A stretch of DNA of 64,000 nucleotides from Balanoglossus misakiensis (lineage: Eukaryota; Animalia; Hemichordata). The first letter of the stretch is position 1; each line of letters begins with the position of its first letter. The notes under the pieces are model-generated. The model was not told the origin of the DNA. It made no database searches and was given only the letters and a program-made list of their open reading frames with translations. Positions 9,001-64,000 of this stretch are shown one piece after another. The stretch is taken from the NCBI GenBank assembly GCA_040954595.2, contig CM082586.2:7781337-7845336 (forward strand), read 5' to 3'. The position numbers and the translations under genes are program-made.

Positions 9001-9591
9001 CTAAAAATTTTCTACACCATTTTCTGTGTACCTTCTCCAGAGCATCGTACAAAGAGTATGGTCACCATGGTTTTAGACAGCCAGCCCGAGCTATCGAAGA
9101 AACTGGCTAGCCATATGAGCCACAGGGAGACGACCCAGTCATCCTACTATAGGATTGCTGGGGCTGTGAAGGAAAGTTCCAATGTTATGCAGGAAACTAG
9201 AAAAATTAGAGATGGCTAAACATCAAACAGTAATAAAAAAGCTGAAATTGGTCCATCATAACCAAAGGAAATTGAACAGGAGCAAGTAGAGCCAATGGAC
9301 ATTGGGGAGGATGATACACCTATAGATCCTCTGGAAATTGTGGATGCTGAATCCATATATGCACCCTCCACTACCGAGCAGTCACACGTCTTCTCTGGAA
9401 GACGAAGCTTTTCAAGCGAGCAAGTTAAAATGATAGAAGTAAGATTTAGAAAAAATATCTTGGAGAAAAGTGTAACTGCTGCCCAGGTTAGGCCAGTAAT
9501 GGAGAATGACCAAGATTTTAAGGGCAGTTTCCACGGCTATACGGTCAAGCAAATTGTAGACAGAATCCGGTGTAGTTTTAGAAAAAAATAA
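6023..9591 (+). pseudogene. Tyrosine recombinase gene, copy B, split by a LINE between the RKS and MSH/YY motifs
   Basis: ORF 6966-8122 resumes after 9062 (MVTMVLDSQPELSKKLASHMSHRETTQSSYY). C-terminal segment 9295-9591 (RRSFSSEQ..F..QIVDRIR). Confidence 0.85.
8123..9050 (-). mobile_element. 5'-truncated non-LTR retrotransposon (RTE-X-like), 928 bp
   Basis: 12-bp TSD aaagagtatggt at 8111-8122 and 9051-9062. ORF 8246-9052 gives the post-RT region with the LAIEEGR..RLCKFC...EDEYHFLLEC zinc knuckle. AATAAA followed by a (CTATTCTT)2 tail. Clade assignment is from motif recall. Confidence 0.92.
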
Positions 9592-26800: not shown

Positions 26801-29800
26801 TGGATCCAACCATCACATTGGCAACAAGTCCTGCAAGGCACTCTCTGGAGACTGCGCAGAAGTTCGGCGAAAATCTATACATACATCTTCAACAAGCGCT
26901 TGATTGTGGCGACCCATGTGAACACAGGTGAGTGCAACTATAAACCACGACTGAATTTTCAAATTAATACAACATACTGTCAATTTCATTTCTCAGTACA
27001 GACACCATATAACAAAATTGATTAAAGACAAATTACATTTTACTATTTACTATTTCGTTGAAAAGAAGAGTGTTGAGCGAAGTAACGTGTGGACTCAAGA
27101 TCAAAATGAATTTATTTTATTTACCACTCTAGGTTCTGTTACCATGGTTACAACCGATCCTTGAAAAGGGAGTCTTGTGAGCGAAGCAACTTATTGAAAC
27201 TAATGCAGCACATCCTTTCAGCTTTTAAAAGTCGAGATGATCTTCTTCAGGATTTGTTGCTAAGTGCATGTCAGGCCATCTTTTCCGGTAAGAGAAATAT
27301 GTTGTGCATAATAATGAGTCTTACCACTGTACTTTTGTCCTTGAGTGATAAAAGTTTTATGGTCACCTGTGACAAATTTAACCACACTACCATGACAAGT
27401 TCAGACTTAGCCAATAACAGATTTCATTTGGGTGGTCGCGGGAAATCAAGTGCGCCCTCACATGGTCATTCGAAGACTTGGGCACGCACTTTAAACCTTA
27501 AACCATATGTGGGTATATGCAATAAAAACTAGTAGTTGATTTACCTTTAATATTTTATAGTACGCATGATTTCGTGTAACTCCAAAGCTCATCATCTGAA
27601 TAGGTGCACAGCTCCATAACTTAAATTACTGTATATAAAGTTAATGTTATACATAATCAAGTTATCTGTGCCTCCGTTTCGCACATTGTCACTCGTATTC
27701 ATAAAGTTAGAAAGTGTATTTTCTGTCTCAAAGAACTCAGAGATCAGACAGCAAGCTGAAATCACTTTGGGTTTAATTGCAGTACTCCAAGATAACACAC
27801 AGGATGGCGGAATTGTACGCGATGAAACAATATGCCTTTTCTACCAGGATATCCAAGAACTTTTACAGGCATTGGTCTTCCGTTGTTATCAGCAGGAACG
27901 TTTGCATGATCTACGGAATCAACTACTCAACTTCGTGTTGTGAGTACTGTGTATTTTAAACCAATATTTCCCTGATGGAAGGATGTGTCCAATGTCTTTG
28001 ACATACACAGAGTAATGGTAGCTGGAGAAACGATAGGCGGTATAATCTCTACAACGTTGTTTCGTGAGTCACTGAGTGAGTCCAGCTGATATAACCTGAT
28101 CCCACTGATGTTTAACGTGCATATCACTACGTCAAGTGTAAAATATCTCCGATGATATTTCACGTGAAACGTCATCATTTCTTGTGTGTGCAGATTCTCG
28201 GAACTGTATTAACGAAAATGGGCCTTGGTTGTAAACAAAAGTAAACAGCTACGCAATCGTCAGACACCACTGTGGTGCAGCTCACAACCACACTTGCGGC
28301 TATGGCCAAACAAAGAAGTGATTTCGGGTGATAACCCCATATTGTTGACATAAGAAAACAGATACATCTTGATTTTTTTCATTTTTTTTACAGGAACAGA
28401 GAACAAGCGAAGAAGCTTCAGAGAACGGACCACACAGACCAACTGGTCAGTTTGTACCGCTTGTTCAATGGGAAGAAAACTGTGCTTATGCAACACATCG
28501 AAGACATGAAGTCAGAATCGTCCGAAACCAAGCAAACGGTTAATTTATACCAGGACATTCTGCACCTGATAGATTTCCTCATGGCAGATAGTGAAGCAGA
28601 TAGCAGGCAAGTTAAAAGGGGTTTGTAACTATGGGTCCCAGGCGACACATTAAATCGAAGTAGGCTGTGAAATAAAGGGTAGGGGTCATCTTGTGTGAGT
28701 CAGCGAGTATGGGTCCCATACACTTGCTAGTAAATTAAAGTAGGTCCAAAGTGCAACTGCCACAATGCACACCCTTGCAAACAGTGTGGTGTTACTTTGT
28801 ACAACGTTATGGAAAATAGTATGTCACTACTCTGACATTTTCAACTTACTTTGATAAAACATGGTCTGCTTGTCAGGGTCTCCTAGGCAGTGGGAAAAAT
28901 GCCAGAAAAGTCGCCAATTTGCAATTCAGACGACCCTCCCTATTAAACCCTGTCATGATTGTTGGTTTTCTCTCAACAGGAAAGTATGGTCAGTTCTCGT
29001 ACTTCATCATTAAATATCGCTTAAAAACTAATATAACATTAAGTTTTTCATTTATTACTCTAAAATCCTGGTTATTTACCTATTTATTCACAACGGTCAT
29101 TTTGTGGAAATGTTAAGACAATAATTGCACAGCTTTCCTGATTCTTTCATTTCTACGTGACAAATATTAACCTACTGTAGTGGTGGTGGTGGTTTATATT
29201 CTGTGGAGACCTTTCAGCATGTAGAAGTATTCAACAAGGGTTGTGAAATACAAAAAACATAGGATGGGGTTATTTAAATGATTTCATGTTTACTATTCCA
29301 GGAGAGTGGTTTCCCTACTTGAACGCGATATTCCATTGTTTGCTGCGTTTCTGAACAGCATTATGTTGTTTGGGTTGGAGGTCAAGTTCATAAAATTGGC
29401 AACAAAATTCTTGGCAATCTTAATAGATCGTGCTGAAAAGGTAATGACGTTTATGTTAATGCATTGATCTGCATATTTAGTTATTTCTAATGCAGTCTCC
29501 GGTACATAGATAACCGCTTTAAATAATGGAGATCTATTCAACCGGACTTGACTCGTGCGAGCTTGAAAACAGGTCCATTTAGACAATGTATGGGGGCATG
29601 TGTAAATTAGTTATAAATGCATACATTTAAGTAAACTAGTATGTTTCTATTTATTTTTATTTTGCCATGCCTCTGCCTCCCAGGCTTATATTTTAAAGCC
29701 ATTTAAACATTTGTTGTTTCAGTTCACTTTGCTGTCGACAGTCTATCTTTCCAACAAAGATGTTCAACAAGCAAGGCAACATCGTAAGTTACACAGCCAC

Positions 29801-32800
29801 ACAAAGTTTCTTACATGTTCTGCAATTCTGCTTCCTCTACTGCGTATTCTTATTTGGCATTCACGAATTACCGTATGTGGGTGAATTCAAGTGGATGCTG
29901 GCTTCGGTGTTATCTAATTCAAAGCTAAATTTGTGCAATTTTCGCTAAAATCTAGAGTTAATGCAGCTAATTTTATTAATCTTGTAATGTAATCGTTTTC
30001 AGTTCATAGTTGGTGCTAATCTAATGCTTAAAACTACTATTATGTTACTGATCATTGGTAGGTACAGTGTCCTTTACGCTGTTTTTTCAAGTGACTTGAT
30101 TGTACAGATCATGTTGTTTGAAGCGCGCTGCCCATACTGTATCAGTGTTTGTTTATGGATTAACCCTTTCTACGCCAAGGACAGGTCAACTTATAGTCCC
30201 ATTTGACGAAATAACCCCCAGTTACTTTTTCCACATTTTTTCTAAATAATTGAATAAGACTTTGATAATGCCAGTGGAACATTACGACCATTTTGTAAAA
30301 AAATAGACAACATGAATAAAAGAGGTTATTCTTTTGCATATGATTTCAGGATTGTCGTCAGAAGCAGTAGATGGCGGGACTGTTGCTGAAAACGTGGACA
30401 CAAAATCCGAGAATTACCGAGATGCGTACCTTCAATTGTCCCACCTTCTGTTGTACTTCACACACCTGGTCTTCGTGAAGAGCAAAGAAACAAAGACTTG
30501 TTGTCCCTGCCCGCAGACGATTATCCATGCCGCGGTGTGTGCTTTGGAAATGGCAACAGCACGCCTACTGTTTTTTGGCCAACTGGCATTGCCCGCCGTG
30601 GAAAAGTTTCGGAAACTCGAGCGGGGCATCCGAGACAATATGCTTGGTAAGACAATCTTGGTTGCAGTGTTAGTTGTCTTCACTGCAATGTCTTTTACTA
30701 CTCATATTTGTTCATGCGAATATGTATAGACCAAAACAAGGCTTGTTGTTACAGTTGCATTAACGTGCAAAAGGATTAATGCTTACTCATAGATTTGATT
30801 TGATTTTACAACGGTAACTCATGAGTTTTAGAAAAAGCGATTTTCTAGGGATTACATTTAAAATAAATGACATTTAAGGCCCCCGTTATGCATAAGTGCA
30901 AATGATAACCTGAATATTTATCTAATCATGCCCTGCTGTTGTCTTTATTTCAAAGATTGTTCACACCCACTCATCGCTCCCACGAAGTCATTTAAAGCAG
31001 AGGTAATGCGAGCATGCGCATTGGAACTGTCCAGAAAATACAAGTGCATACAGGACCGTACTCCACCTTTGGTACTAGTGGACTTGCTGTTGTCGACACA
31101 AGGGACAGACAGTGCAATGGCAGAAATACTGATAGAGATGTACACGGATATTCTCACCTACTCGTCGTCGCCCTTCATGGCAGATGTCGCGACGCTGTCA
31201 TGGCACGACAGTAAGTTTGAGGGCGCTAAGCTGTGGACGAACACACTGGACAATTTGATCCGGGCAGTGAAGAAGCAGAGAGAAAATTCCGCTCTCAAAC
31301 AACATACTGATTTCGTTATAAGCAGGGTGAGTATTAATGTTCCAAGACGATGATGTTTGAGTCATATGACTAATGGCTGTACCTTTTAAAGTAAAATAAA
31401 TTCTTAATTCCTCGGCCCTTGTCACTATTATATTCCTTTTCTCACCCATGTTAAAAAATTTCTATACAATGGATGTTATACAAACTCGCCAGAAGGGTAA
31501 AGCTTTTCCACCACGCGGGTCATGTTGAGATTTGCACAGCATTAGTGTGTGACTGCTTCCTATTTTGACTTCATGATCGATACATGGCGGGTGCCACTTG
31601 TGGGCAGGATTGCTCACTATTTTCAGAACACCTGACGTCACTTCCTGGTCTTTCAATCAGGAACTTGACTTTGGTCATGTGTTGATTGTCTGTGCAGTGC
31701 TTTTCTTACTTTTGGCTTGCAACTGTGTATAATTTGACCTATGAACTTTTTAGTCTGTGGATGAGTATGATCACAAGTATTTTGTGCCAATAGAAATGCC
31801 CACGTCAACAAATATGGTACTTTGGCTGATGGGATTGACCATAATACTGAGAGTATGATAACCATAACAATTAAAATACATATTTTTCAGGTTTTCGCAA
31901 AACTAGAAGACCTTACATCACGTAAACTCAAAGAAGAAACCACTAAATGCGTATTGAATGCCGACATACAAGGTTTACATACTTTTGTGAAGATGTCAAT
32001 AGCGAAGTTCTGCATGAAAGTCGCGTATGACCCACTTATGTACATACCGCGATGCCAAGTGAAGCAAATCCTCCAAATGACCGCTGCTCTAGAGTGCGGC
32101 AGTGATCAGATAATTGCTCTTGTGAAGAAGGAGATGACTGCGCACGACATCCTTGAATACGTTTCATTTTTGAAGGAATCGTTTGGTCAGGAATCCTGGA
32201 GTGCAATGTGCCTTATTAGCTCATCCGTTAATTGGCTTGTACCTGCTGCAGTTGCTACGAATTCCAGACACGATGAAGCTTTCGTGGAGATGCTGACCTC
32301 TGATTTGGACCTTGGTCCGAACATTCTATCTTTGCTTGAACTTCCCGAGAAAATCCTCTCAAACAGCAAACATTATGACACCTCGGCGTTGCTTGCTCTA
32401 GGGGAGTATTTCTATAACGCCAACCAAATAAGCATCGGTGTAGACTTCATAAAGGCAGCATTTTCAAGGGTGTTGGACGACATATACCTGAATGAACAGA
32501 AAGATAACCTTTCTCGACTACACTGGGTCTTGCTAAATCTCCCAGGGGACCAACTGAAGGCTCTGCTTGAGGACTCGTCGGTTGTGAAGGGTCTATTCAC
32601 GGGAGCCGTCGTAGGTTACGTCAGCTGCAGAGATTGTAGTTTCGCGTATCCTATCAGCGACAGTAAATGGGAAAAAGTCTGTAGCTTTTTGAACGCGGTG
32701 TACAACAGTATTTCTGAGGTTCACGATTCGCCCCAGGCCGAGGAAATCACCCTGGACTGTTTCGCCAAATGTCTTTGCAGAATGGTCAGGTACTGCCCTG

Positions 32801-32988
32801 CGAGAAAGCCCGTGTACAGGAACCTGATCAGAATGTTTCGTTCTGCAATCTTGTGGTGTCAGGAAAGGGGAATGGCGAGTTGTAAAATTGTGGAACACGT
32901 GGGCAATCTTGTGTCGTCTGCGGTTCCATCCGGTCGTCAGTTACTGCAGAGTATGGTGGATGAGGTTGTACAAGGGTTGGGGGAATAA
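23819..32988 (+). CDS. Multi-exon divergent ZSWIM4/5/6/8-like protein (BC-box + SWIM zinc finger + helical region)
   Basis: Phase-consistent exons 23819-23840, 24549-24655, 25147-25288, 25835-26037, 26229-26355, 26750-..., last 31891-32988. Motifs TSLVNLCAETVA (BC-box), IFYLAFP, GFVLSCTV, VSASFECRRI..TCTSC...CCHALAAILYR (SWIM), LSRDQMQTLLQW and DPT. Middle exons only partly traced. Confidence 0.8.
24806..25017. mobile_element. MITE with tactgtaaaa...tacagta ends and internal ttcgcg/cgcgaaaa repeats
   Basis: Terminal inverted TACTGTA; a related fragment lies at ~46414-46507. Confidence 0.55.
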
Positions 32989-34848
32989 CGTAATATTATT
33001 TACAGTCGTTCGGCTAAAAACAAAGTCTCAAGCATATTAAAGAATTCAAAGTTCCATGAATACGACCGCAACCAACCGAAATATGCAAATCAGTTGAAAA
33101 TGCCGAACAGATTTGTTAAATTATTGCCAATGTGGTTTTTTTTTTAATTGTTTTTATAAATATTTTTTTGTACGATTTCTCTCTTTGGGGAAAACTTCGC
33201 TGAAAAAGTTTGTCCTTATGCTTCGGTATTTTACGAGGATACAGTATTTGTGAATAAAGTGTAGGTTTGCAGTTATCGAGTTGTAAAGTGTATTCAACTT
33301 AATTCTGTCTGTTTGTTAGAAAGATTTGTAGCAGAAAAAAATTGAAGCGGAGAAGTGGAGTGATTTCAGGAAGACGCCAGTATGATATTGAAAAGCAGAT
33401 TTCTGAAATAAAATCAAAGTTGTCTGCTGTGAAGACCCATCCTCTGTTGTCAGGAACTATTGTCAGGAAACAGTGGGATTGAACCTGATGGAGACCAAAT
33501 TATTTTGAGACAAAATGAGGAAAGAATCAGCAAGATAAAGAAGGACACTGAATCACTGATGAACATTATTACAAAGAGTGAAATTGTTAACTTTACAAAG
33601 AATGGGAAACTTATCACTGGAAGGGATACTGCCAGCTCATTTCATACACAGGCAAGTGCAACACTTCTCCACCTGGAGAAAAGAGGTTCTGAGTATGTAA
33701 ATCCATGTGCAGTTTTCTAAAACATCAAACGGGAGCCGTCGTAGGTTACGTCAGCTGCAGAGATTGTAGTTTCGCGTATCCTATCAGCGACAGTAAATGG
33801 GAAAAAGTCTGTAGCTTTTTGAACGCGGTGTACAACAGTATTTCTGAGGTTCACGATTCGCCCCAGGCCGAGGAAATCACCCTGGACTGTTTCGCCAAAT
33901 GTCTTTGCAGAATGGTCAGGTACTGCCCTGCGAGAAAGCCCGTGTACAGGAACCTGATCAGAATGTTTCGTTCTGCAATCTTGTGGTGTCAGGAAAGGGG
34001 AATGGCGAGTTGTAAAATTGTGGAACACGTGGGCAATCTTGTGTCGTCTGCGGTTCCATCCGGTCGTCAGTTACTGCAGAGTATGGTGGATGAGGTTGTA
34101 CAAGGGTTGGGGGAATAACGTAATATTATTTACAGTCGTTCGGCTAAAAACAAAGTCTCAATCATATTAAAGAATTCAAAGTTCCATGAATACGACCGCA
34201 ACCAACCGAAATATGCAAATCAGTTGAAAATGCCGAACAGATTTGTTAAATTATTGCCAATGTGGTTTTTTTTTAATTGTTTTTATAAATATTTTTTGTA
34301 CGATTTCTCTCTTTGGGGAAAACTTCGCTGAAAAAGTTTGTCCTTATGCTTCGGTATTTTACGAGGATACAGTATTTGTGAATAAAGTGTAGGTTTGCAG
34401 TTATCGAGTTGTAAAGTGTATTCAACTTAATTCTGTCTGTTTGTTAGAAAGATTTGTAGCAGAAAAAAATTGAAGCGGAGAAGTGGAGTGATTTCAGGAA
34501 GACGCCAGTATGATATTGAAAAGCAGATTTCTGAAATAAAATCAAAGTTGTCTGCTGTGAAGACCCATCCTCTGTTGTCAGGAACTATTGTCAGGAAACA
34601 GTGGGATTGAACCTGATGGAGACCAAATTATTTTGAGACAAAATGAGGAAAGAATCAGCAAGATAAAGTAGGACACTGAATCACTGAGGAACATTATTAC
34701 AAGGAGTGAAAACGTTAACTTTACAAAGAATGGGAAACTTATCACTGGAAGGGAAGCTGCCAACTTATTTCATACACAGGCAAGTACAACACTTCTCCAC
34801 CTGGAAAAAAGAGGTTCCGAGTATAAGTCCAGTTCTCTAAAACATCAA
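32599..34848 (+). repeat. 1130-bp tandem duplication of the ZSWIM-like 3' coding end, 3'UTR and flank
   Basis: acgggagccgtcgtagg at 32599 and 33729; ORF 33705-34118 repeats the last ~129 aa of 31822-32988. Confidence 0.95.
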
Positions 34849-35079
34849 AGTTTAAAGAGGAAACAGAAACAGAAACGTTTTCCAGTGGATGATATCATGC
34901 TTTGTTTAGGACGTTTCATAGAAAATTTCCCAAAAGTATCAGGTCATTGGGCTTTGATGTCATATCATAGTGTATTTCGTTAGTACAGCTCAGTCTGCTG
35001 TAAATTGTTAAATCAACAATATTTCCTGTAGATGCACGAGCTTGATGACATGTCCAATGTTTACATTTATTATTATTAG

Positions 35080-40700: not shown

Positions 40701-43700
40701 AACCATATAGTACCGGTACTTCTTTTCATACTGCAATGTTAAATATTTGCTAAGGACGGCGGAACTGTCACAATCCTTTTAAACTGTTGTAACTAAAACA
40801 TTCAGTTTGCATCACCAAAGACTCTTGTTAGTATATGCGTGGGTAAATTTCCTGTCAGTTGCGGTGTCCATGATAACATTTGAAATCAAGTTTCTTGAGA
40901 TTCTCTCAGGTGGCATTTACGCTAGATATTAATTTAGCAATCTACAAAAAACTAAACATTAAATGCAAATAAGTATTGAGGCAGGTCCAGTATGGAACCT
41001 TTTTTGAACTATTGCAATCCAACATAATAGAATCCCTTTCATCCCATTTCGTTTGATTACTGAGTTACACCGTCTGTACTAGATATTGCGAGCGATTTGA
41101 TGCATCAAACGCGTAAAAGTTTGTCAAGCATCGCGTATGAGGTAGATTGTATTCATCGTGTCATGGTATCTGAAATGTGATCTCTTTCAGTGAAATTTTC
41201 AAGATATAAATTTTTCACTATGAAACGAAGCATTTATCAATAGAAATTCGATCTCTGTATAGTGCCATCGGAATGTAACATCATTGTACTATGGTTATGA
41301 AACCTAACACTTTAAGTTTTAAATGCTTATTCGTGTTCGGCGGGATTTCTATAGAAAAGCATTCCCGGGCTGTGTACGACACACCGCCAACGCATTGCGC
41401 GGTTGTAGTATTTCAGATGGATTTAATAAATTATACACATACTCAATTGAAGAGCATACTTGACACCATGGGTTTTCTGATGAAATAATGACCATATTAG
41501 CCTAAGTTTAATTAAAAGCAATAACGATTTTATTACCTTCACACAGATTTAAGTACACCCTTTTCTCATTTTCACTTTAGATAATGACGACTTTCCTCAT
41601 CTGTCACCACGTTTGGCCGTGATAAAAGCCAGTGGAAAGCATACAACGACTCTCGTAAGGGAACACACATGTTGAAATTACACAACTGTTGTACATAGCA
41701 CTTTCAAACCACAAAACTATCGTCGGCCATTACCTTATGATTGGAAAGAAGGAGGATAATTATGTAAAATGCAACACCGAGACTGGCCCTCATCGTGTTA
41801 AAAAGTGAATGAGTGGAAAATGGAGTAGATGTTATGATCTCAATTTTAAATGCTATGTAAATATTGAATGACGACAAACTATGAGAAGATGATGTCAATT
41901 CGTTGTACTTAGCAACACAGCGGCCGGTTCCATGAAAGGCGTGTGGTGCAAATGTATGCAAAGGTCAATTGTCCTCGTATCAACTTAGAAACAAGAACAT
42001 TCAAACATGTCGGAACTGAAAAGTAAAACGTCGATGAATTTGCTTGATAATTATAATAATAATTTCTGAAAGATGTGAAAAGTTTACATAATCACTGTGA
42101 TATTTTTCTCTCGACAGAGTCTTGCAGTGATCGACGATCTGGTCAGTTTCACCTCGGGACTTGTCAACAAAAACACACTGTTTGAAGATAGCATTCTGCT
42201 TTCGCAAGGTTTGCCGATTAAATTTCTTTTTGTTTTCTGGAAATTCTGCAATTTCAAACTGATGGTTAACGTTCCCTTCAAACCTTTTCAGAGATACTGA
42301 GTATTATTCAAGATGTCATTGACACAATACAGTCCCTGATAGACGTTGATCCGAGTCAAAAGTTGACTCTAAACCAATCGAACGACTTGACGAAGAAGGT
42401 AACGGAAATAGTCGACCAACTGTCAATGTTTGTTCTTCGCATGGCCGAGAGTGACAATGTAACGACAGTGCTAAACACATCTTCACTCGTTTGGAACTTG
42501 GAAAAGAAATCTGCCAAGGAATTATTTGACCTCGTCGTGATGGTAGGAGATGGAAGTGGATTCGAGCTTCCGCCAATAGATAACGTGTTTCCTAACGTGT
42601 CGTCGGATGCTGTTTGGAGCAGAATGGTTAGTATTCATTACATCGCCGTCTTTTGTCACAAGGCAGTGGTTTACCACAATAGGGGAATGCTATAATTAAT
42701 TGGCTTCTTCCGTTTTCTTTCAATACACAATTGCCATTGATTGTGAATTTTAAGGATTAGAACACCCCTGAGTATTGCATGCTAACACAAGAGGGTAATT
42801 TTGTTTGTTACTTCTTTCCTCAGACGTCACTGCCCATTTACATCTGTTTTGAGTAAAAACATTAAAATCTTTATTTTCCCTCAGATATTCCGTTTTGCTG
42901 TTAACCCCCATAAACTGAACACGAAGAGATACAGCTTTACTACAGATATATTGACGCTGATATTCAAAGATGAAAACGGTGTCGAAACGACAGGTAGGAC
43001 GGACCAGAACATAGAAATGATTACTGGATAGTCATTCATATCTGCTTTTGTTTTTTTCCTAAGCGGTTACAAATTCGAAGCAAGCGTTACAGATTTGAGA
43101 TATCGAGGAAAAATTCTTACAGCGTTCGATTATGAAATCGCCTAATAACAATTCCAGAGCAAGGCAAGGTCAAAGTCAGTTTACCAAAAATTAATAAAAC
43201 TTTTGCTGGTTGGATTAGATAATATGTACAATAATTCCAAGACCAATACATGTATATTGATTAAGACTTGTTCAGCACACAGATGCACAATCATGGTAAC
43301 TGTCTTGTCGTATTCAAATATAATTAACTCTACTAGATGTTATAAACGGGCGTGGATTTTACTTCATAATGACAACGGGTAAATGTTGTCATTTCAGTGA
43401 ACGAAACCACAAAGGATATTGGTATATGGCTTGGAAATTACCAAACCCCATTCAACGAAAGTATTGTAAGAGGAAAGCACATTGAAGCCGAAGGAGTGAC
43501 TCATTATGAGTTGGAAGTAACGGTAGGACTGAGGGCTCATTAAACATCACAACTATTGTCTGTGTATACTGGTGTTTGCAATTTCACGTTTTTATGTTTT
43601 AGGTAATTAGGCTGTCAGGAAAAATATAATTATTTTATGATTGATTGATTGGTTGGTTGGTTGATTGATTGGTTGGTTGATCGATTGATTGATTGATTAT

Positions 43701-44896
43701 TGTATCAACATATTATAAACATTGACTTACAGGCACTGATGATGAACAACGCTCTCCAGATCACGTTGAAAGCATCAGAACCTATCTCTGAGACCATTAT
43801 AGCAAATGTGTCATCTGAAAGACCTGGCGATCCTGTCGAACATGGAAGTTTCCAGTTGATCATTGAACTGGTATTCGACGGCCGTTTTGCATCCATATTT
43901 TTGCCGGAAAATAAGATAACACGAACAGGGTTTTACTACGTGACCTTTGACCTTAATGGTAAGTGGCAGAAAAGGACATGTAAATGTTACGGTCTGTTTC
44001 ACTGTCAAGTTCCACTTGGTCATTGTATACGGAAAGATTTTGTTTCAAGAATTATTTATTGTCTATTGCAGAGATATGGATCTCGGTGGGCCTAAGGTTG
44101 GGGGTTGCTTGTATAAATGACAATTTTTTATAGTTATCTAACACCCACGCGGTAGTTATCATGTATACGTTAAACCTCAGCCACCCCCCCCCCCCCGCTT
44201 GTGAACCACGTGTCTGGCTAATTCCAGCTGCTTGGTGTAACCATGTATATGTTCATTTTCATTATTACAGCTTGTGGTGTTGACATCAGCGTGACAACCA
44301 CGCAGCATAAGTGCAGTACTTTCACCGACAGTGGTTGGGAAAACGTTGGATGCAAGGTATGGCATCGCTTGGTATAAATATGCCTGATCGGTATGCCCTG
44401 CTTTGTTTTGAGACCTGGTACTTGGACGTGACTAAATGCGTTAATCGCTTAAGGGGCGTAGAGAGGCCGAAACTTTGTTGTACTGTTGTAATTAAGTGGT
44501 CAGTTGTTTATTAATACAGTGAAATGGTCAAATGGGCCCACTTGGGGGTTTCGGAACAAAAATTTGCACCGCCACAAACAATTCAACGTGAGTTCATGAC
44601 TATAGGTACTGGTTCAAATACAGGTACAGAGGATTTGTACCAACGCCCTCCTCGGGTATGATAAACCCCACGACCCTGAAAAAATATTCACGAACTGTTT
44701 ATGTTTCAGTAAATAATTAAGTAACCGTTTTCTGTGTTCCATTTGTTAGGTATCACCGAAGTCCAACTACAACTCGACTCTGTGTCTCTGCAATCACATG
44801 TCAACGTTTGCTGCAGTTGTTGAAGTCCTTGATCTGGTGGAAATTGAGACGCACTCGTTACATCCTACACTTAACCAAAATGTCAGAAGCGGGTGA
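37800..44896 (+). CDS. 13-exon, ~670-aa protein: signal peptide + 2 C-type lectin-like domains + PKD1/REJ-type GAIN/GPS domain, no transmembrane segment
   Basis: Phase-consistent GT-AG exons 37800-37899, 38917-39199, 39425-39501, 39890-40172, 40603-40679, 41581-41654, 42118-42208, 42292-42626, 42885-42993, 43398-43522, 43733-43958, 44271-44356 and 44750-44896. CTLD motifs (WID, GDCIAM..KWRDRDC..ICE). GPS: KCSTFTDSGWENVGCKV...CLCNHMSTFAA. Confidence 0.82.
38108..38611. mobile_element. Non-autonomous Kolobok-like MITE
   Basis: TTAA at 38104-38107 and 38612-38615; TIR aggcacgtaagctgcaact / agttacagcttacgtgcct. Confidence 0.85.
43638..43697. repeat. (GATT/GGTT)n microsatellite
   Basis: Direct reading. 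Confidence 0.9.
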
Positions 44897-48437: not shown

Positions 48438-51400
48438 TTTATTGCGTTCCAAGGCCACCGGCCCATATGCAAGGGGGTTACAGAAATTTAACATAGATAA
48501 GACAGCAAAATAAAGTACAGCTATACATGACAATTAAACAGTTTAAATCCTGTCTCTTGAAAAAAGCGAGAGATATATCTTTCTCTGCTTAAAAGCTTTG
48601 CCTATGAAAATACAAAGGTCTTTGTGTTTTTGTTAAGTTAACCTTTGTGAATAGAACAAAGCAGGTAAAATGCAGAATATAAGAGAAAAAGTAATAAAAC
48701 CAATATTCTTCCACATACCGGGGTACATACATACATACATACATACATACATACATACATACATACATACATACATACATACATACATACATACATACAA
48801 ACAAACAAACAAACATACATTAAACTGTGCAGAGTAATACTTACATTTATTCCACAAGCCTGGAAAGAAAGAGCATAATAGAACATTTGTAAGTAACATA
48901 CCAAGAAACGCATATTTCGCATGCCAATGTTACCTCAATATGTGATAAACTGACCCTATATGTAATAATATTTATATCTCAGTTAACCACAGTAATGTCA
49001 TACATACATACATACATACATACATACATACATACATACATACATACATACATACATACATACATACATACATACCATACATACCATACATACATACATA
49101 CCGTACATACCGTACATACATACCGTACATACCGTACATACATACATACATACATACATACATACATACATACATACATACTACATACATACATACATAC
49201 ATACATACATACATACATACGGTACATATATACGGTACATAAATACATAACTGTGCAGAGTTATACTTACCAACATACCACCCACGTTTGGATGAATCAA
49301 CTATCTGCTTTCCTGTGAACAGAACAAAATAGACAATAAGTGGAATAATACACACATACATCCTCCAATAAATGATATAGTTATACAAATAAACTGCCAT
49401 TGATCAAAGCTATGTTACTAAATGTACTCGTCATCTGTAGACACGTCAAAGGGTTTTGATCACCTTACCTTGAGTATTTCCTGCTGTGCGTTCATGTCCA
49501 TTATTGGCTGCTTCGGCACCGTCTATTTTAATAAAAATACCCGAATCAGAAACATATACAATACAGAAAATCACAACATTAACGTCATCTCCCAAGTAAG
49601 GCAAAAAGGTCTATAAATGTTATCGTGCCATTTCCTAACACCAGCAGTGTTACCTTTATGCTGCTAGGAGATAAGTTCGGCATACGATACCAGTAAACAT
49701 TTACATGTGTTAGAAATTTATGTATATTTTGCTTAATCTGGCCATCTGATTATAATATATGTGGTCAGATAAGAGATCATCACTTCTGAAATGCATGTTT
49801 ATCAGCATGTCTTTCATTTATCAAGGATGCCAGGCACAAATTAAATTATAAAATTAAAAGTTTTTGCATTTACGGTGGATTTCAGCTACAGTCGCCGCTT
49901 TCTTTAAAAAATTGTATTCAAAACCTTTAATTTGGTTAGACTTTTATTGAAAATATTGGTCAAAGACTGTATGTGTCATTTATATTTTGCGTGTGTATTA
50001 CACATCTTAACAGCGAGATGACATGGAAATGGTCGTATGCGTAGCGACTTTGTATGTTGCTTCTAACCAGTAACAGAGATCCCTTCGTTAAAAATCATAG
50101 AACAATAAAATAAAACATGGATAAGGAAACATCTTAAAATAATCTGTAGACGTTAATAAATGCCAATAAACTGATCATATGATGACTGCCCTCAGTTGCG
50201 GCATTGACTATCAGGATAAAAATTGTATTTATATACAGTCAAACCTGTGTATAGTGGCCAGTCAAGGGACCTTCATAAACTGGTCTTTATAGACAGGTGG
50301 TCTTTATAGACAGGTCAATTAATGCACATGTAAGTTGCACAGGGACTGTAACATAGTGGCCACTATATAGAGGTGGTCACTATATAGAGGTGGTCACTAA
50401 CACAGGTTTGACTGTAACTAAATCTCAATTTCCATAATTTTGTCTTTGATACAAATGAAGTATACATCACTATAAAATAATTTGCTCAAAGAATATCTCA
50501 CATTACTTATTCTTTACTTACAAAGTTTGGATGAATCAACTCTCCTCTTTCCTGTGAATAGAACAAAGCACGTAATATGTGGAATAATAAGAGACAGAGT
50601 AATAACCACTATTGCCATGCCCAACCCCCGTCTGGTCACTTTTTGTCGTCTGCTTCGTGCTTAATGCTCGATCCCGGACAGCTCGTGTTTACAGTCATCG
50701 TCGCCATGTTGGTTCGTGATTGTAACTTCTTTTTCTGATGCTGTTTCGTTCAGAAAATGCCACTGATATACCACAAAATCAATGGTTGATATAATATAAT
50801 AGCAATAACCCTTGCCTCAGTCGGGTATACACTCGATTTGGGTACAATTCGCTCCATATATTGTACCCAAATCTCGTGTATACCCGCCTGTGGCAGGGGT
50901 TATTGCTTAAGTATCCTCAACTTATAGATACTATTGTGATATATGTGTGTCACCAAACTCACTTAAATAAAATAAAAATCTTAAAATACAGGAATTCTTA
51001 CTATTAATGGGAATCCATGGTTCTGGAAAGAAGGACAGAATACCGGTTGACTATTTGTTACTACAAGTTTTTACGGCAAAAAAACACTGTTTATTGATTG
51101 ATCAGACTTGCTGAAGTTATTAGCAAGCTCAACAGATAACGCGGCAACATACCTCCACGTACCCGTATATGTCTGTTGCAAAATGCTGGGTCCATATACC
51201 GGTCTACATATATACCGGTACATATATACATACATGACTTTCAAAAATTAACTTTGTACGCAGTAATATATAAAACCATAGTTTTATATATTACTAAGTT
51301 TCTTTGTTTGACGCCATCATTTACAATACTGTTACCCACAGAATACTATTATGTGACACACATCAGATGGATTAAATTTTCATCATACGAATTTGTTACA

Positions 51401-57306: not shown

Positions 57307-57317
57307 GGGGATTTCCC
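57307..57317 (+). promoter_or_regulatory. Candidate NF-kappaB site GGGGATTTCCC upstream of the Ubl-IFI44 gene
   Basis: Exact GGGRNNYYCC match, followed by TATATA (~57330) and an Inr-like tcatt (~57347). Confidence 0.45.
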
Positions 57318-58421
57318 TAAAGTGTGACCTATATACGTAGCTCGAGTCATTGGTAGGTTATTTTCGTTTTGAATTCTTCGGAACCAAACAGTGACCGAGG
57401 TTACTTATTTGGACTTTAGCTGGTAACCTACCTGTCGAGGCAAACATTTCGAGTGGACAGTAAATCTTTTGGTGCTGGCAAATTCTCTTCTCAAGCTTCT
57501 GTCAGATAACATTTTGATTAATCATGTTATGTGTCTTAAGCTTCTGTTTTCAAAAATTGACCTAAGAAGTACTACATGCACATTCGATGTTTATATGGTC
57601 TGATAGCATTGTTTGGGGCTGGTGGGTCTCTTATCCCTATCGGTTATCGGTTTTTCCTCCTTTTCATACTAATTTTTTGTCACCCTAGATCTAGAAAACC
57701 ACTGCACTTCTCAAAGTTGGTACTATAGTCTGTTCCAATGAGAAGCCACTCACCTGGCTTGTCAATTTTAATTTCAGGAAGAAAAACGAGGTTCATGGGT
57801 TACAACGCCCTGGTTAAGGTTAAGTACTACGAAATCACCAAAAAATAAATGTAATGTCAACTTGATGAAACATTCTATAATATTATACCTCTTGAAATAT
57901 GAAATAAAAAATAGGGGTCACCTCATCCGTTTCCATGGAAATGGAGCATGAAAAGTACTCCTTAAGGACCTGAAAAAATGTCCACTTGAAATAAAAATTC
58001 ATAATAAAAGTGTAAAAACACAACTTAAGAATAAAAAATCAATTAAGAGGATGGATATTTGAAAAAACTTGTCTTTTCAGACTTTTGATTGTCAATCATA
58101 GAACAAAATTTGTTGTAGACTTTTGTGTTTCCTTTTCATTTTGAATTCCACGAAGCCATGCAACTCCCATGGTTCACAGTACTAGCCTGTCATGTGAGCT
58201 TGTTTTCGATCCTAAACTACTCGGAAGCCATGTTCGTGCACACTTCATGCGCATGTGCAATGAAACCTATTTGTAACTTGTAACCTAGCTACCAAACTAC
58301 AAACTGGTGGAAGGTTGGCGATTGCCAACATTGCACATTGGCATATACTAAATCTGTTGTATATCAAAGGAACCGACATAATTTTCACCGAAACACAGTA
58401 CTGACAACAACAAGAACAATC

Positions 58422-59662
58422 ATGAGCAGCCAGAGAAGAATTTACGTAAGACATGCTGACGTCAGTGGTAATCTGATGCCATTGAGATGTAAGGAGGACG
58501 ACACCATTTGGGAACTGGCCGTTTTAGTGAAGCAGAATGCTGACATGTTTGATCTCAGAAGCGATGATATTAAGACCAACAACATTGGCATATGGCTAAT
58601 AGATGGCAGTGGTAGCAAACGGCTATTGGAGTTTAATGAGCCTGTTTCACTTATTAAAAGTAACTGCACGGTAGAATTCACCGAACATCGGCAATGTAGT
58701 AAGTATACATTACCCCAAATGACAAAACATTTAAAATTATAGCTGTACTGATTTGGGGAAATTAAAAGTTTTGTTCCCGAAATCCGATAATTATAACTGA
58801 AGAAACGGATTGTGAATACTGCTACATGTACCGTATAGTATGACTGGGGCTGTGCTATTTACCATGGACTTGTTGTAATGTTGTTTATTACGGGATTCGA
58901 ACACATCACGTAGCAAGTAATTCCGTTAAAAATACACCAGTTTCATAATACTGATTAGTGGACAACCTTAGATGCCATTGTATCACTGCACTCCATCTTA
59001 CGTTGTATAAACCTTGTTTAGGGGGGCGGAAGGGGGTTGTTTGGAGGTACATCAGGCGGATCGCCTTGTATTTGAATCACTGTGATTGTGTTTTTGATTG
59101 TAAGCGAGTACAGTTTCCATATACTATCCAACCCACACATGCATTAAAATGCATCTCTGGCACATTATTTGAAAATATTTATATTTAACATGGCATTGCA
59201 TAAAACATTTTCCCCTTCATATATCAGTTTAAGCTTATTCCCATGGCTCAGGGATACACACTCGCATTAAAGTGTTAATCTTTATGTTAATGTACTGATT
59301 TAATACTGTTCAGCCTACAGCATCCCAGTCAGATACATAAGGTCAGTCAATCCGCTTCCAATACCATACAGAGAGAAATCTGATGTCTCTGAAGTTGCGC
59401 GATACATACGAGAAAATATTACAGCCTTCCACTTGACACAAGAAGACACTAAACGAGCCAAGCAAAGTGGGGGTGAAGTGGTGTTAATGCAGATCATTGA
59501 TGGTGATGAAAAATCAATCAAGCCTGGTACGCAAGTACATAGTTTGGAGGGTTCCGATCTTGTCTTTAAGATCAAATCTTCCTCTCGTCAAGACAAAGGT
59601 GAGAGGTTCCAAAAGAGACTATACACATTTGTGCCTCATTTGTTAGCTGTCAATTGATGCGC

Positions 59663-59693
<31 letters not shown>

Positions 59694-59747
59694 TGTATGT
59701 ATGTATGTATGTATGTATGTATGTATGTATGTATGTATGTATGTATG

Positions 59748-59781
<34 letters not shown>

Positions 59782-62700
59782 TGTATGTATGTATGTATGT
59801 ATGTATTCATTTAGACAAATTGTTGATTGTCCGACAATACAATACAATACAGTTAAATACAAACAATACAATATTCTGTATCGCCTGTTTATTTCTGGTT
59901 TCCTTCAGAATATGTAACTCTCTGCCCTGTTAACGTTTTTGTTGCTTTGTGTCTCTCAGATTTGGAAATTTGGGTGAAACATATCACCGCAGTCTATCCG
60001 ATCCGCTTCCACTGTTCAGAGGATGACACGGTCTCTGATCTCGCAAAGAAGATTACAGAACGTATAAGAGATTTTAAACTATCTACAGAAGACACAAAGA
60101 TGGCTCAAAAGTGTGGAAACGAAATAATACTGGCGACTATCCCCGATAAACCTGGAGACAAAAGCAAAGTTTTGAATCCGGGTGATAAAATCGCTGGCAT
60201 GCAGGAAAGAAGGTTCGAATTTTCAGTGCAGACAAAAGAGATGAGAGTGACTACTGTAGGTAAGCCACATTATAAACTCAAATAATGTTCGGTGGTTTCT
60301 CTTTAATCGGCAAAATCAAATGAATTTCTTAGCTAATTCTGGTACCTTTTGATCACACTTCTTCCCATAGCAATGTTTATGTGACGAGCATCGGATTGTC
60401 GCCCATTGCTGACAATGTTTTCCCATCATTTTGTTGCGGCTTTAAAGTTTGATTATGTCAGAGGCACGTAACTACCGGTAATCGCATGAGCTGCAACTGG
60501 ATAAAAAAATTAAAGTTTTAAATAATCTCATATATGCCTTTAATCATGTCTATTAAATGATATTTCATGATAATATATCAAGCTCAAGACTTATTTATGG
60601 CCAAAAATTGAAGAAAAACGAAAATTCCTGCATTTTTAAAAAAAGTGCAATATTAGAATGAAAAAGGAAATTATAATGTCTCAGCGGTGTACATTTACTT
60701 CCATGAGCTCAAGTGGATGAGATCATGTTTTGTTTATAAAGTTTCATTACCGGAAATGCAACATTTTTGTTGTTTTTTGAATTTTCCCACGGTGGCGGCC
60801 ATAATCGCTTGCGGCAAAGCTTTATTATTTATCTGGTAAGAACTTGCATGTGCACTCATATTTAGGGTTTATAATGCTTGTGTTTAGTTCACTGCCTTCA
60901 TCTGCATAGACTAATGGTAGTACAGTTTGAAACAAAAATTATGATAATTATCCCAAAAGTTACAGCTTATGTGCCTTTATAAAGCCTGAGCCCCTGTGAC
61001 ACATTTTGGGAGTTTTCTTTTGATATGAATACTGCACAATTGTGACTTTGTAAGTAAAAATTTGTCATAAACTATTGGATCAGTAATTTTTAAATTCTTC
61101 AGTCTCTAAAACTTTGGTATATTAGTACTAAAAATTCTATACACTTCCGCGAATCCTATTTTTTTTTCAATTTCTTAGCGTTTGAAAATAATTTATGATA
61201 ATTAGTTCTTTATATTTTTAAAAGCTGTTTAAATGCTCTTTCAACTGAACAGTCGATTTGATTTATTACAAACAAATCCTTCACAATCATTATGCTTGTA
61301 AGCTATATTAAATTCCATGAAAGAGTTCTGTCGCTTATTAAGACTTTTCTCCTTTACTTTAAATGACGCAATCTGGTTATAGATATAACAGTTGTTAATT
61401 TTGTATTTACAGATGACATCAATGAAAAGTGTGATGGGCAGAATATAGCATTTGTTGGAGCACCTGGACACGGGAAATCTTCCACCATTAATACTACTAT
61501 CGGAGTACGTATCTGGATCGTGCAGTATGATAAATGATAATAAGGCATTACCAAAATATATCTGAAGGTGTTCTGTTTTTAAACTAACTAATAAGCTAGA
61601 ATTTTTAGTACTAATATACACAAAATATTATGCCACAATATGTGCAGTAGTTATTATATAGTTCTTTCAGTTTCATTTGTATTCTTGCTCTTGTATAGCT
61701 TGAAAAAAAATGAGCTAGTCGTATCAAAACATCGCTAATTTTTGCTACTCGGGATTGGAAGCAAGAGAGGCTTTGAACAACCCAAGTCTAATGAATCTGT
61801 TTATTTATAGGCACTGGCACAAATCCACGCTCCACTAGCTTCAACATGGAAGGGTGCAGCAACTGGAACTAGCGCTTTGACTTCGTACAAAATTGATGTG
61901 AGGGGAAAGTATTTCAAATTCATCGATGTTCCTGGCAAGGCAATAAGCCACAAAGGGAGTGATCAAATGGAGAAGATAATTAGTGATATCTTTGATGGCA
62001 CATATGCAGAAAACGAGTCCCTGGATTGGAAACTGAGTAATTACTTTAAAACAAAAACTGGTCCTATGCATGCTGCAGTCATCGTTCACAAGGGTGGTGC
62101 TGATTTTGACCGAATCGGCTCTACTACTATAAGAGTTGCTCAAAAAAAAGGTAATAGTTTAAATGGACATTGTATGACTTATCAAAATGTCTAAGTAACA
62201 TAAATTAAGACAGAATAGGTCAAATCATAATAGTATATTGCACTGTGAGTAAAATGGTCGTAAACCCAATGTAATATTTTGAAGAAATAATGTATTAATT
62301 ATTGTATTTCACGACATTTCTGTCTTTAGCTAGTATAAAGAACTTCATATTAATGCATTCGTGCCAGTACTGTTAAGATGTAAGGCGAAATAAAAAATGT
62401 TTCCTGTTCCAATTACATGGTTTTTAAAAATAGGATAGGTGCGCAGGGAAATTTTCTTTATATTGCAATTTTTAAAAAATCTTCGGCCGTCATAGTGTAG
62501 AAGAATGACGTCATAGTTCTGGCGCTATTCTTGCAATTTTCATAAATTTGATATGTTTGACATGGTTATTGTTACTTCTGGTTTACGAAGCTCTAAAAAG
62601 TTTAGGGTTGGTGGGCTAAAATTAGGGAAGGTCGGGTAATTGGAACAGAACATATTTTTAATTTGGCCTATAACTGGCAACCTGTTTTGATTTTAAAGTT

Positions 62701-63076
62701 TCCTCTTGTCCGTAGGTGAGACTAGGTCATTGATGATTATATAACTCTCAAATTTATGAACACATATAAGGTTGAATGGTTATGGACCTAATATCAATTT
62801 GGTTTCTTTTCAGGTCGGGGAATTCCATTGTTTGCTATAATCACCCACATAGACAAAATGTCTGAAGATAAAATCAAGGAAGCTGAAGAAAATCTCTCAG
62901 ATGGCCTTGGCATTGATCTCTCAAGGATTTATACAGTGGCGAATGCAGATGACAAGTTAAGTTCGACCACACCCTGCGTAACTCCAAAGCAAAACATCTA
63001 CATCCAGAATATGCTTCTTGGTTTTCTCACTGCAGCGGAAAATTACAAGAATGGTGGCGAATTCAAAATAAAATGA
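58422..63076 (+). CDS. 7-exon, ~533-aa protein: three tandem ubiquitin-like-type repeats + IFI44-like P-loop GTPase domain
   Basis: Exons 58422-58698, 59314-59598, 59960-60259, 61253-61297, 61413-61504, 61811-62150 and 62814-63076, all phase-consistent. G1 NIAFVGAPGHGKSSTINT, G3 FIDVPG, MHAAVIV, G4 IITHID, GIDLSRIYTVAN and QNMLLGFLTAAENY, as in the IFI44/IFI44L C-terminal domain. Confidence 0.82.
59664..59805. repeat. (TATG)n microsatellite
   Basis: Direct reading. Confidence 0.97.
60462..60976. mobile_element. Second copy of the Kolobok-like MITE
   Basis: Colinear with 38108-38611; ~17-nt insertion in the left TIR; TSDs degraded. Confidence 0.85.
62382..62670. mobile_element. MITE with imperfect TIR aggcgaaataaaaaatgtttcctgttccaattac / gtaattggaacagaacatatttttaatttggcct
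   Basis: Inverted termini of ~30 bp; superfamily uncertain. Confidence 0.6.
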
Positions 63077-64000
63077 GATCAGATGTTTAAACAAGATGTC
63101 AATTTGAGCTACATCATATTATAAACACAATTTCCCTAGGGCTGTATTTTATTCGAGAACATGTATATCCATTTTGACGACATCACACGTTACCATGCCA
63201 ATGTTGAAGAGATGGAAGCAGCCTTTGTTTAAATTCAAATAGGTTGTACTGTTACTGAATTGTATCAAGGTATTTTAAGTCAAAAACTCATAATTATGGT
63301 TTTGAAGCAATAATCATAGTTTATCTTTTTACAATATTGCTCAATATGACGTTTACTGTGAGTGAAAAATATGTGGTTTTGAATATGTTAATACTAGTTG
63401 TAGTGTGACAGTTAAACTTTATGTTGTATCTACCATGAAAGTCAAATTTACAAATGTATGTAAAATAAATGGAAGCAGTTTTCAAGGAAAATTAAATGAT
63501 GTGACTATAATTTAGAAGTATTGATCTTCAAACCAAGTTTAGCAGGGTTAGCAATTAAATACAGTGATTAAATAAGACAATGTATATAAATGCAAAGAAT
63601 GAAAACTTAGTTGTGGGGAGCATCCTATTGGTGTTCATGTAAAAGATACAAGATTATGAGGAAAAATGTGTAAACTGGTGAATGTTTTGATTGATGGTGT
63701 CCACAGAACTATATTGTGGTGGAAAGAACAACGATATTATCAAATTATAACCATGCTGCAGTTTGATTCTTGAAATGGTAAATGCATGCGCTTGAATAAG
63801 CTTAAAAATCAGAGGGTTCAATTTTTAACATCCATTCAGCAAGCATTAAATATGAACATAGAACCATCTTATTCAATTTAAAACATACCTAGGCAACACA
63901 GGAAAGGTTTCTGTTTAACTTTTAAATGTAGAGTGTTTTTTTTCTTGGTGTTGTGTTTATAGAACAATAATGTATACAGCGTATGACTTTGCACTATTAA

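What the first reader, a model, noticed from the sequence alone, without database searches (positions are those of the whole stretch)
58422..63076. IFI44-like GTPase with three ubiquitin-like repeats in place of the TLDc domain
Seen: three ~92-100-aa exons ending in phase 1, mutually similar (IYVRH/IPVRY/IWVKH; EDDTIWELA/EKSDVSEVA/EDDTVSDLA; FDLRSDDIK/FHLTQEDTK/FKLSTEDTK), fused to an intact P-loop domain with IFI44 hallmarks. Knowledge: IFI44/IFI44L are interferon-stimulated antiviral proteins normally carrying an N-terminal TLDc domain. The beta-beta-'DDTV.DL'-helix pattern is typical of beta-grasp (ubiquitin/Crinkler-header-like) folds. Inference: a possibly undescribed invertebrate immune architecture (Ubl x3 sensor or decoy + GTPase) built by exon duplication. 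No di-Gly motif is visible, so conjugation is unlikely.
Basis: partly seen in the sequence, partly recalled or inferred. Interest (0 to 1): 0.75.

Follow-up and report, generated by a model that had tools for sequence, protein, structure and literature searches.

The report
Ubiquitin-chain GTPase of acorn worms
This intact animal gene, likely from an acorn worm, joins three copied modules with a predicted ubiquitin fold to a GTPase related to the antiviral protein IFI44, an apparently undescribed design that likely acts as an intracellular immune switch docked onto partner proteins by those modules.

Summary
Six GT-AG exons (58422-63076; intron phases 1,1,1,0,1) give a stop-free 518-aa protein, 55% identical end to end to Ptychodera flava XP_070533647.1, so the repeats and the GTPase are very likely one gene; no RNA reads were available to confirm splicing. 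The repeats model as beta-grasp (window repeat 3: pLDDT 92, Z 9.6 to the parkin Ubl), with subtype unresolved. The GTPase has intact G1-G3 and an atypical G4 (THxD). Its nearest predicted structures include IFI44 and TLDc-GTPase clusters (TM 0.82-0.83), and profile scores agree, but it is a distant branch. It belongs to an expanded acorn-worm family (12 P. flava and 4 Glandiceps proteins named) carrying 0-3 repeats, with CARD, TIR-SAM or CaaX variants. 'Replacing TLDc' is not shown, since many IFI44-like proteins lack TLDc. Decoy or conjugation looks unlikely: 0 of 42 repeats end in di-Gly, repeats are as conserved as the GTPase, and ubiquitin's Ile44 patch appears absent. Best reading: an immune GTPase switch with non-conjugated docking modules (inferred). 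No paper on it turned up in ten searches; two key papers were unseen. New variant of a known kind; interest 0.5.

The parts
58422..58698 (+). Exon 1: ATG and beta-grasp repeat R1 (92 aa), ends phase 1, donor GTAAGT
   Evidence: 55% (51/92) to P. flava R1; the homologue's R1 is modelled with ubiquitin-type strand/helix order
59314..59598 (+). Exon 2: repeat R2, symmetric phase 1-1
   Evidence: 59% (56/95) to the P. flava counterpart; absent from two-repeat relatives P0012 and P0014
59960..60259 (+). Exon 3: repeat R3, symmetric phase 1-1
   Evidence: AF2 pLDDT 92.4; Foldseek to ubiquitin E 4.5e-4; VIA Z 9.6, rmsd 2.0 over 72 to parkin Ubl
61413..61504 (+). Exon 4: start of the GTPase domain with P-loop G1 (GAPGHGKS)
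   Evidence: 81% (25/31) to the homologue
61811..62150 (+). Exon 5: G2 threonine, G3 (DVPG, no catalytic Gln after it), IFI44-type helical insert ending in 'IFDG', and the HAAV strand
62814..63076 (+). Exon 6 (coding part to the TGA stop): GIP strand, atypical G4 (THID), G5-region asparagine, C-terminal helix; no CaaX
57307..57317 (.). NF-kB-like site about 1.1 kb upstream of the ATG (weak lead only)
   Evidence: 5 matches at 3 places in the window against 2.84 expected; 18 of 100 shuffles reach 5, so not beyond chance
63464..63469 (+). First canonical AATAAA poly(A) signal candidate downstream of the stop
   Evidence: use not tested

Best explanation
The gene encodes a 518-residue protein with three tandem modules predicted to have the ubiquitin (beta-grasp) fold followed by an IFI44-related GTPase, and it likely works as a cytosolic innate-immune switch in which the non-conjugated ubiquitin-fold modules would dock the GTPase onto partner proteins. 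Shown: exon structure, open frame, a full-length annotated homologue, G-motifs, family expansion and modular repeat number. Predicted: beta-grasp fold and IFI44-type G domain. Inferred: GTP binding and hydrolysis; self-activation by G-domain pairing as in Toc, septin, GIMAP and GBP GTPases (no Gln after G3); docking through a conserved family-specific surface (R/K-H/Y at the end of strand 1, Asn, Phe-x-Leu, Asp, Glu); and an immune role. In this reading the repeats, the CaaX tail and the TIR-SAM or CARD heads of relatives are interchangeable targeting parts on one G-domain module.
For: Full-length collinear homologue, 55%. Family of 7 and 31 hits, of which 12 are named P. flava and 4 Glandiceps talaboti; 8 of the 12 and 4 of the 4 share one contig length, which suggests clusters. 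AF2 of the homologue: pLDDT 83 with three ubiquitin-type units; top Foldseek hits are linear tri- and tetra-ubiquitin chains, then the USP7 Ubl array. G domain: TM 0.82-0.83 over about 230 residues to TLDc-bearing and IFI44-named clusters. A family profile without IFI44 sequences matches 12 of 12 IFI44-like-named proteins at 40-60 bits over most of the domain; their profile scores the window domain at 25.7 bits against at most 2.5 for shuffles. Relatives carry TIR+SAM (P0029) or CARD plus a repeat (P0032), and 7 of 22 end in a CaaX-like motif. Each window repeat is nearest to the same-position repeat of P. flava paralogues. IFI44 homologues are upregulated in antiviral cells and after poly(I:C) in cnidarians (bioRxiv 10.1101/2025.01.24.634691, passages).
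Against: No expression, splice-read or biochemical data for this gene. The IFI44 kinship is distant: the window domain's best stretch covers only positions 37-130 of 270 of the IFI44-like profile, the comparison proteins were automatically named shark and ray proteins chosen by a profile that contained a shark hit, and no GIMAP or septin sequences were run as controls. G4 is THxD, not N/TKxD, so guanine specificity is uncertain. In human IFI44 the G1 motif was dispensable for restricting RSV (bioRxiv 10.1101/2020.02.24.963900, passages), so the switch may not be the functional core. An amphioxus gene labelled IFI44 went down after poly(I:C), though its gene id is also labelled EGFL7 (PMC5752451, passages). 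Solved-structure Z-scores for the G domain do not single out dimerising GTPases. The upstream kB-like site is not beyond chance.
Confidence: 0.5

Rival explanations
1. The three repeats are a linear-polyubiquitin or ISG15 mimic: they bind ubiquitin receptors of innate signalling (as the tandem Ubl of OASL does, recalled) or bait pathogen deubiquitinases, and binding or cleavage releases the GTPase.
For: The whole model's best solved matches are linear tri- and tetra-ubiquitin; single-repeat hits include the OASL tandem Ubl (Z 8.9) and ISG15 (Z 8.8); the Atlas structure neighbours of the repeat region are polyubiquitin clusters.
Against: 0 of 42 repeats have Gly-Gly near their end. Identity of window repeat 3 to ubiquitin chains is about 15-18%. 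By hand assignment with recalled ubiquitin numbering, the Val70-equivalent column is 7% hydrophobic, the His68-equivalent is Glu in 23 of 42 and the Ile44-equivalent is mixed. The repeats are not more divergent than the GTPase. The polyubiquitin matches have rmsd 13-22 A and follow from any three beta-grasp units in a row.
Confidence: 0.17
2. The repeats act like Ras-association domains: they bind the protein's own GTP-loaded G domain or another small GTPase, and so regulate the switch from within.
For: RA, RBD and FERM-type beta-grasp domains tie with Ubl domains among the solved matches (Z 8.2-9.2); there is a sub-threshold PI3K_rbd hit in one relative (E 0.008); the repeat next to the GTPase is the one kept in the one- and two-repeat members of the window's clade.
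Against: The full-length model has confident domains but pTM 0.50, i.e. no fixed arrangement. At least six relatives have no detectable repeat. Foldseek ranks ubiquitin itself first.
Confidence: 0.18
3. The family is a lineage-specific GTPase expansion with a non-immune job (membrane traffic, stress response or development); the IFI44 kinship is only ancestry.
For: No functional data; all named family members are 'uncharacterized'; the divergence from IFI44-like proteins is deep; the amphioxus result above.
Against: Clustered expansion and TIR, SAM and CARD fusions in the family are typical of innate-immune genes (established knowledge).
Confidence: 0.12
4. The first three exons and the GTPase exons are separate genes wrongly joined.
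For: No RNA reads could be examined; one relative (P0025) has three repeats and no GTPase; the homologues are RefSeq models whose evidence I did not see.
Against: Eight proteins (six of them named, from two species) carry three repeats plus the GTPase in one chain; exon 3 ends in a GTAAGC donor in frame with exon 4, and the junction residues align with the homologue.
Confidence: 0.03

Closest known systems
IFI44 / IFI44L family (TLDc + G domain)
   Same: G-domain fold and length (TM 0.82-0.83); collinear motifs: G1, DxxG without catalytic Gln, 'I.dG..P' insert, H-avv strand, G5-region Asn, C-terminal helix; lineage-specific expansion.
   Different: No TLDc; three beta-grasp repeats instead; His inside G1 and THxD at G4 are family-specific; long branch from vertebrate IFI44-like proteins; no known interferon context.
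ISG15, FAT10 and OASL tandem Ubl domains
   Same: Tandem beta-grasp units in an immune-type protein; single-repeat Z 8.4-8.9.
   Different: No C-terminal di-Gly (ISG15 conjugates through LRLRGG, PMC13030082 passages); three units, N-terminal, fused to a GTPase; 16% identity.
Crinkler/CR proteins with a Ubl header domain
   Same: N-terminal Ubl header before an enzymatic domain; GTPase C-termini are listed among CR proteins (PMC5289972 passages); one relative hits Pfam Crinkler at E 0.004, below cut-off.
   Different: No Crinkler hit for the window's exons; header triplicated; intron-rich animal gene; the primary paper could not be read.
GIMAP/AIG1, septin, Toc34 and GBP GTPases
   Same: P-loop GTPase fold; Toc33 and septin give the longest structural alignments (191 and 198 residues); CaaX tails in relatives recall prenylated GBPs (recalled).
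   Different: AIG1 15.7 bits against cut-off 27, IIGP 12.9 against 24; Z-scores tie with many other GTPases.

Membership tests
IFI44 family | IFI44-type G domain (fold and profile similarity over the domain) | tested here: met
   TM 0.82-0.83 over about 230 residues to IFI44-named and TLDc clusters, using the homologue's model; family profile matches 12 of 12 IFI44-like-named proteins over most of the domain. Distant; human IFI44 itself was not compared.
IFI44 family | G1 GxxxxGKS and G3 DxxG without catalytic Gln | tested here: met
   GAPGHGKS and DVPGK; motif description from bioRxiv 10.1101/2020.02.24.963900
IFI44 family | N-terminal TLDc domain (canonical IFI44/IFI44L) | tested here: not met
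   The N-terminal 287 aa are three beta-grasp repeats; no TLD hit. Many IFI44-like-named proteins are too short to hold one.
IFI44 family | Orthology: nests among IFI44 proteins in a rooted tree | tested here: inconclusive
   Tree of 37 G domains has no outgroup and long branches meet
IFI44 family | Induction by interferon or viral nucleic acid | not testable with these tools
   No expression data available
Ubiquitin-like (beta-grasp) superfamily | beta-beta-alpha-beta-beta-beta grasp fold | tested here: met
   AF2 pLDDT 92.4 for window R3; Z 9.6, rmsd 2.0, 72 aligned; all three repeats of the homologue show the same order of elements
Conjugatable Ubl modifiers (ubiquitin, ISG15, FAT10) | C-terminal di-glycine after the last strand | tested here: not met
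   0 of 42 repeats
Conjugatable Ubl modifiers (ubiquitin, ISG15, FAT10) | Leu8/Ile44/His68/Val70 binding patch | tested here: inconclusive
   Appears absent by hand assignment on the column table, with recalled ubiquitin numbering and no residue-level superposition
Crinkler Ubl header (PF20147) | Profile match above cut-off | tested here: inconclusive
   No hit for window exons; 18.3 bits against cut-off 24.6 in 1 of 24 relatives; not listed for the 7 closest
GIMAP/AIG1 | AIG1 profile above cut-off over the domain | tested here: not met
   15.7 bits against 27, profile positions 2-58 of 212 only, for the homologue
Septins | Septin profile above cut-off | tested here: inconclusive
   Not listed for the closest homologue; one distant relative, P0026, reaches 26.8 against 26.2

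The most novel reading that the evidence does not exclude
Acorn worms have evolved their own family of intracellular immune GTPases in which an IFI44-type G domain is the common switch and exon-duplicated ubiquitin-fold arrays, TIR-SAM or CARD heads and CaaX tails are swappable targeting modules. The three-unit array may be a built-in linear-ubiquitin-chain mimic that plugs the GTPase into ubiquitin-dependent NF-kB or RLR signalling, or baits microbial deubiquitinases, without ligation.
Probability: 0.2. Interest if true: 0.78.

Novelty: new variant of a known kind. Interest (0 to 1): 0.5.

Why it matters
How IFI44 proteins work is unsettled: human IFI44 is reported both to restrict RSV without its P-loop and to dampen IKK signalling through FKBP5 (PMC6712396), and a sequence search with the homologue found no close solved structure. 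A family that keeps G1-G3 intact while swapping its other parts (0-3 ubiquitin-fold units, CARD, TIR-SAM, CaaX) is a natural domain-swap series for asking what the G domain does and how it is aimed. It also adds a Pfam-invisible beta-grasp repeat family and a candidate immune family in hemichordates. It is not a new kind of system: domain shuffling around immune GTPases is familiar in invertebrate deuterostomes.

Tried and rejected
No whole genome is held for this window, so paralogues elsewhere in this genome were not counted; within the window there is no second copy of the repeats or the GTPase. No RNA holder was listed for 58200-63600, so splicing and expression were not read. Pfam does not see the repeats (0, 1 weak and 0 families at E up to 5), and sequence searches of solved structures found nothing meaningful. 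A predicted homodimer of repeat 3 plus the G domain of the homologue, with GTP and Mg, gave no verdict (score 0.00, alignment not used); this is no evidence either way. The Atlas search by features found no usable hit for the repeats. The viral fold search gave only generic ubiquitin-like matches, none at E 0.001 or better. IRF-type motifs are above chance window-wide (12 against 5.5) but are not concentrated at this gene; the kB-like site is not beyond chance. 56 plus-strand ORFs from 36.5-58 kb (of 72 listed) had no Pfam hit, so no upstream CARD or TIR exon was found; the start Met sits where the homologues start. Earlier findings by sequence and by words: nothing. Zhang et al. 2016 on CR proteins is not held.
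Full report
Observation. The region 58422-63076 holds six plus-strand exons with GT-AG introns, end phases 1,1,1,0,1, and a 518-residue frame without stops. R2 and R3 are 34% identical over 89 residues (E 5e-15); R1 is more distant (E 7e-6 and 3e-4; pairwise values). Exons 4-6 carry GAPGHGKS, a G2 threonine, DVPG and THID. No genome and no RNA run was available.

One gene. A search with exon 5 found 1 hit among 176 candidates, P. flava XP_070533647.1. The exon model aligns to it end to end at 54.9%, per exon 55, 59, 57, 81, 59 and 47%, collinear at all five junctions. The window is therefore likely from an acorn worm (inference); two earlier notes on this genome say the same (unchecked AI notes).

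Family. The homologue retrieved 7 proteins among 7999 scored candidates and 31 representatives at E 0.001 or better. Named members are 12 from P. flava and 4 from Glandiceps talaboti, all 'uncharacterized'. Eight of the 12 and all 4 share one contig length per species, which suggests gene clusters. A repeat profile (built from 11 relatives plus the window, so circular for those) finds three repeats in 9 proteins, two in 4, and one clear repeat in P0010, P0021, P0032 and P0026 (the last with a weak second); none in P0023, P0024, P0027-P0030. In the alignment the two-repeat P0012 lacks R2 at about the window's exon boundaries, which fits gain or loss of a symmetric phase-1 exon, or an exon skipped by the annotation. 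Each window repeat is nearest to the same-position repeat of P. flava paralogues; only the R3 group is well supported. In a tree of 37 G domains the window gene lies in a supported clade of 8 (98/97) with five P. flava and two Glandiceps proteins. Other members carry TIR+SAM (P0029) or CARD plus a repeat plus a truncated G1 region (P0032) (these are gene models), and 7 of 22 end in a CaaX-like motif against 0 of 32 shark and ray proteins. The window protein has none.

Fold of the repeats. Pfam and PDB sequence searches miss them. AlphaFold2 of window R3 has pLDDT 92.4. Foldseek ranks ubiquitin first (E 4.5e-4, TM 0.71 by target). VIA gives Z 9.6, rmsd 2.0 over 72 residues to the parkin Ubl, tied within 1 Z with FERM, RA, OASL, ISG15, USP7 and Rad23 domains, so the fold is beta-grasp but the subtype is open. 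The full-length homologue model (pLDDT 83, pTM 0.50) shows three such units, and its best PDB matches are linear ubiquitin chains and the USP7 Ubl array, at high rmsd. Window R1 and R2 were not folded themselves. None of 42 repeats has Gly-Gly near its end. Conserved non-core columns include R/K (34 of 41) and H/Y (38 of 41) after strand 1, Asn (23 of 41), Phe (40 of 42) and Glu (22 of 29). By hand assignment with recalled ubiquitin numbering, the Val70 and His68 positions are polar or acidic, so the usual ubiquitin-binding patch appears absent.

The GTPase. The Atlas model of the homologue's residues 293-536 matches, among 10 rows, three TLDc-bearing clusters and four clusters named IFI44 (one row is both) at TM 0.82-0.83 over about 230 residues; one IFI44-named cluster carries Ig domains instead. 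A family profile containing no IFI44 sequence matches 12 of 12 shark and ray proteins named IFI44-like at 40-60 bits over most of the domain. A profile of those 12 scores the window domain at 25.7 bits (best stretch positions 37-130 of 270), other members at 16.7-46.0, and 500 shuffles at most 2.5 (339 reported). Against this: those proteins are automatically named, were retrieved by a profile that contained a shark hit, and no GIMAP or septin control was run. AIG1 and IIGP profiles stay under cut-off. Solved structures give a tie among many GTPases, with Toc33 and a septin aligned longest. I file it as a distant IFI44-related G domain, not as an IFI44 orthologue. 'In place of TLDc' is not shown, because TLDc-less IFI44-like proteins are common.

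Mechanism. Best supported (0.5): an innate-immune GTPase switch whose non-conjugated ubiquitin-fold units are docking modules. The immune role rests on kinship, clustered expansion and TIR/CARD fusions. IFI44 homologues rise in cnidarian antiviral cells (bioRxiv 10.1101/2025.01.24.634691, passages), but an amphioxus gene so labelled fell after poly(I:C) (PMC5752451, passages; its id is also labelled EGFL7). Self-activation by G-domain pairing is inferred from the missing Gln after G3 and from related GTPases; in human IFI44 the P-loop was dispensable against RSV (bioRxiv 10.1101/2020.02.24.963900, passages). Rivals: polyubiquitin mimic or protease bait (0.17), RA-like self-regulation (0.18), non-immune role (0.12), mis-joined genes (0.03).

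Novelty. Ten library searches (listings and abstract starts seen) showed no paper on a ubiquitin-fold/IFI44 fusion or on this family. Passages were read in PMC5289972, PMC9334734, PMC6712396 and PMC13030082. Zhang et al. 2016, which catalogues Ubl-header proteins including GTPase fusions, is not held, and McDowell et al., cited for annotating the IFI44 G-motifs, was not seen; either paper or its supplements could already list this architecture. Verdict: real, conserved and apparently undescribed; a new variant of a known kind; interest 0.5.

Noticed in passing
proteins P0018, P0022, P0024, P0026, P0027, P0028, P0030: 7 of 22 family members end in a CaaX-like prenylation motif and group together in the G-domain tree (89/76, not starred); 0 of 32 shark and ray IFI44-like proteins have Cys at that position.
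   Followed up: partly
proteins P0029 and P0032 (P. flava): P0029 is TIR + SAM + this G domain; P0032 is CARD + one repeat + a truncated G1 region. Gene models, not checked against DNA.
   Followed up: partly
window 14581-16329 (+): Uninterrupted 582-aa piggyBac-type transposase ORF (PF13843 E 3.5e-82, C-terminal zinc finger PF13842).
   Followed up: partly
window 1692-3146 and 6882-8132 (+): Two near-copies of an ORF with weak tyrosine-recombinase hits (PF00589 E 0.0012 and 0.044); the second is interrupted by a minus-strand retroelement-like fragment at 8246-9061 and resumes near 9060. Possibly a Crypton- or DIRS-type element (recalled).
   Followed up: partly
window 27000-35000 (+): Multi-exon gene without Pfam hits in the three ORFs scanned; its last exon region appears duplicated (the end of ORF 31771-32988 recurs in ORF 33693-34118).
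   Followed up: no
window 42270-44095 (+): Exon-like ORFs that read like the GAIN/GPS-PLAT region of a PKD1L-type receptor (recalled; no Pfam hit).
   Followed up: no
window 59657-59806: TATG microsatellite in intron 2 of the gene; similar arrays near 48700-49300.
   Followed up: no
window 57307-57370: A kB-like site with an IRF-like AAAACGAAA 45 bases downstream (minus strand), about 1.1 kb before the ATG; neither is significant alone.
   Followed up: partly
protein P0034 (JGI/IMG): A PDZ-PDZ + related G-domain protein, another head on an IFI44-like domain.
   Followed up: no
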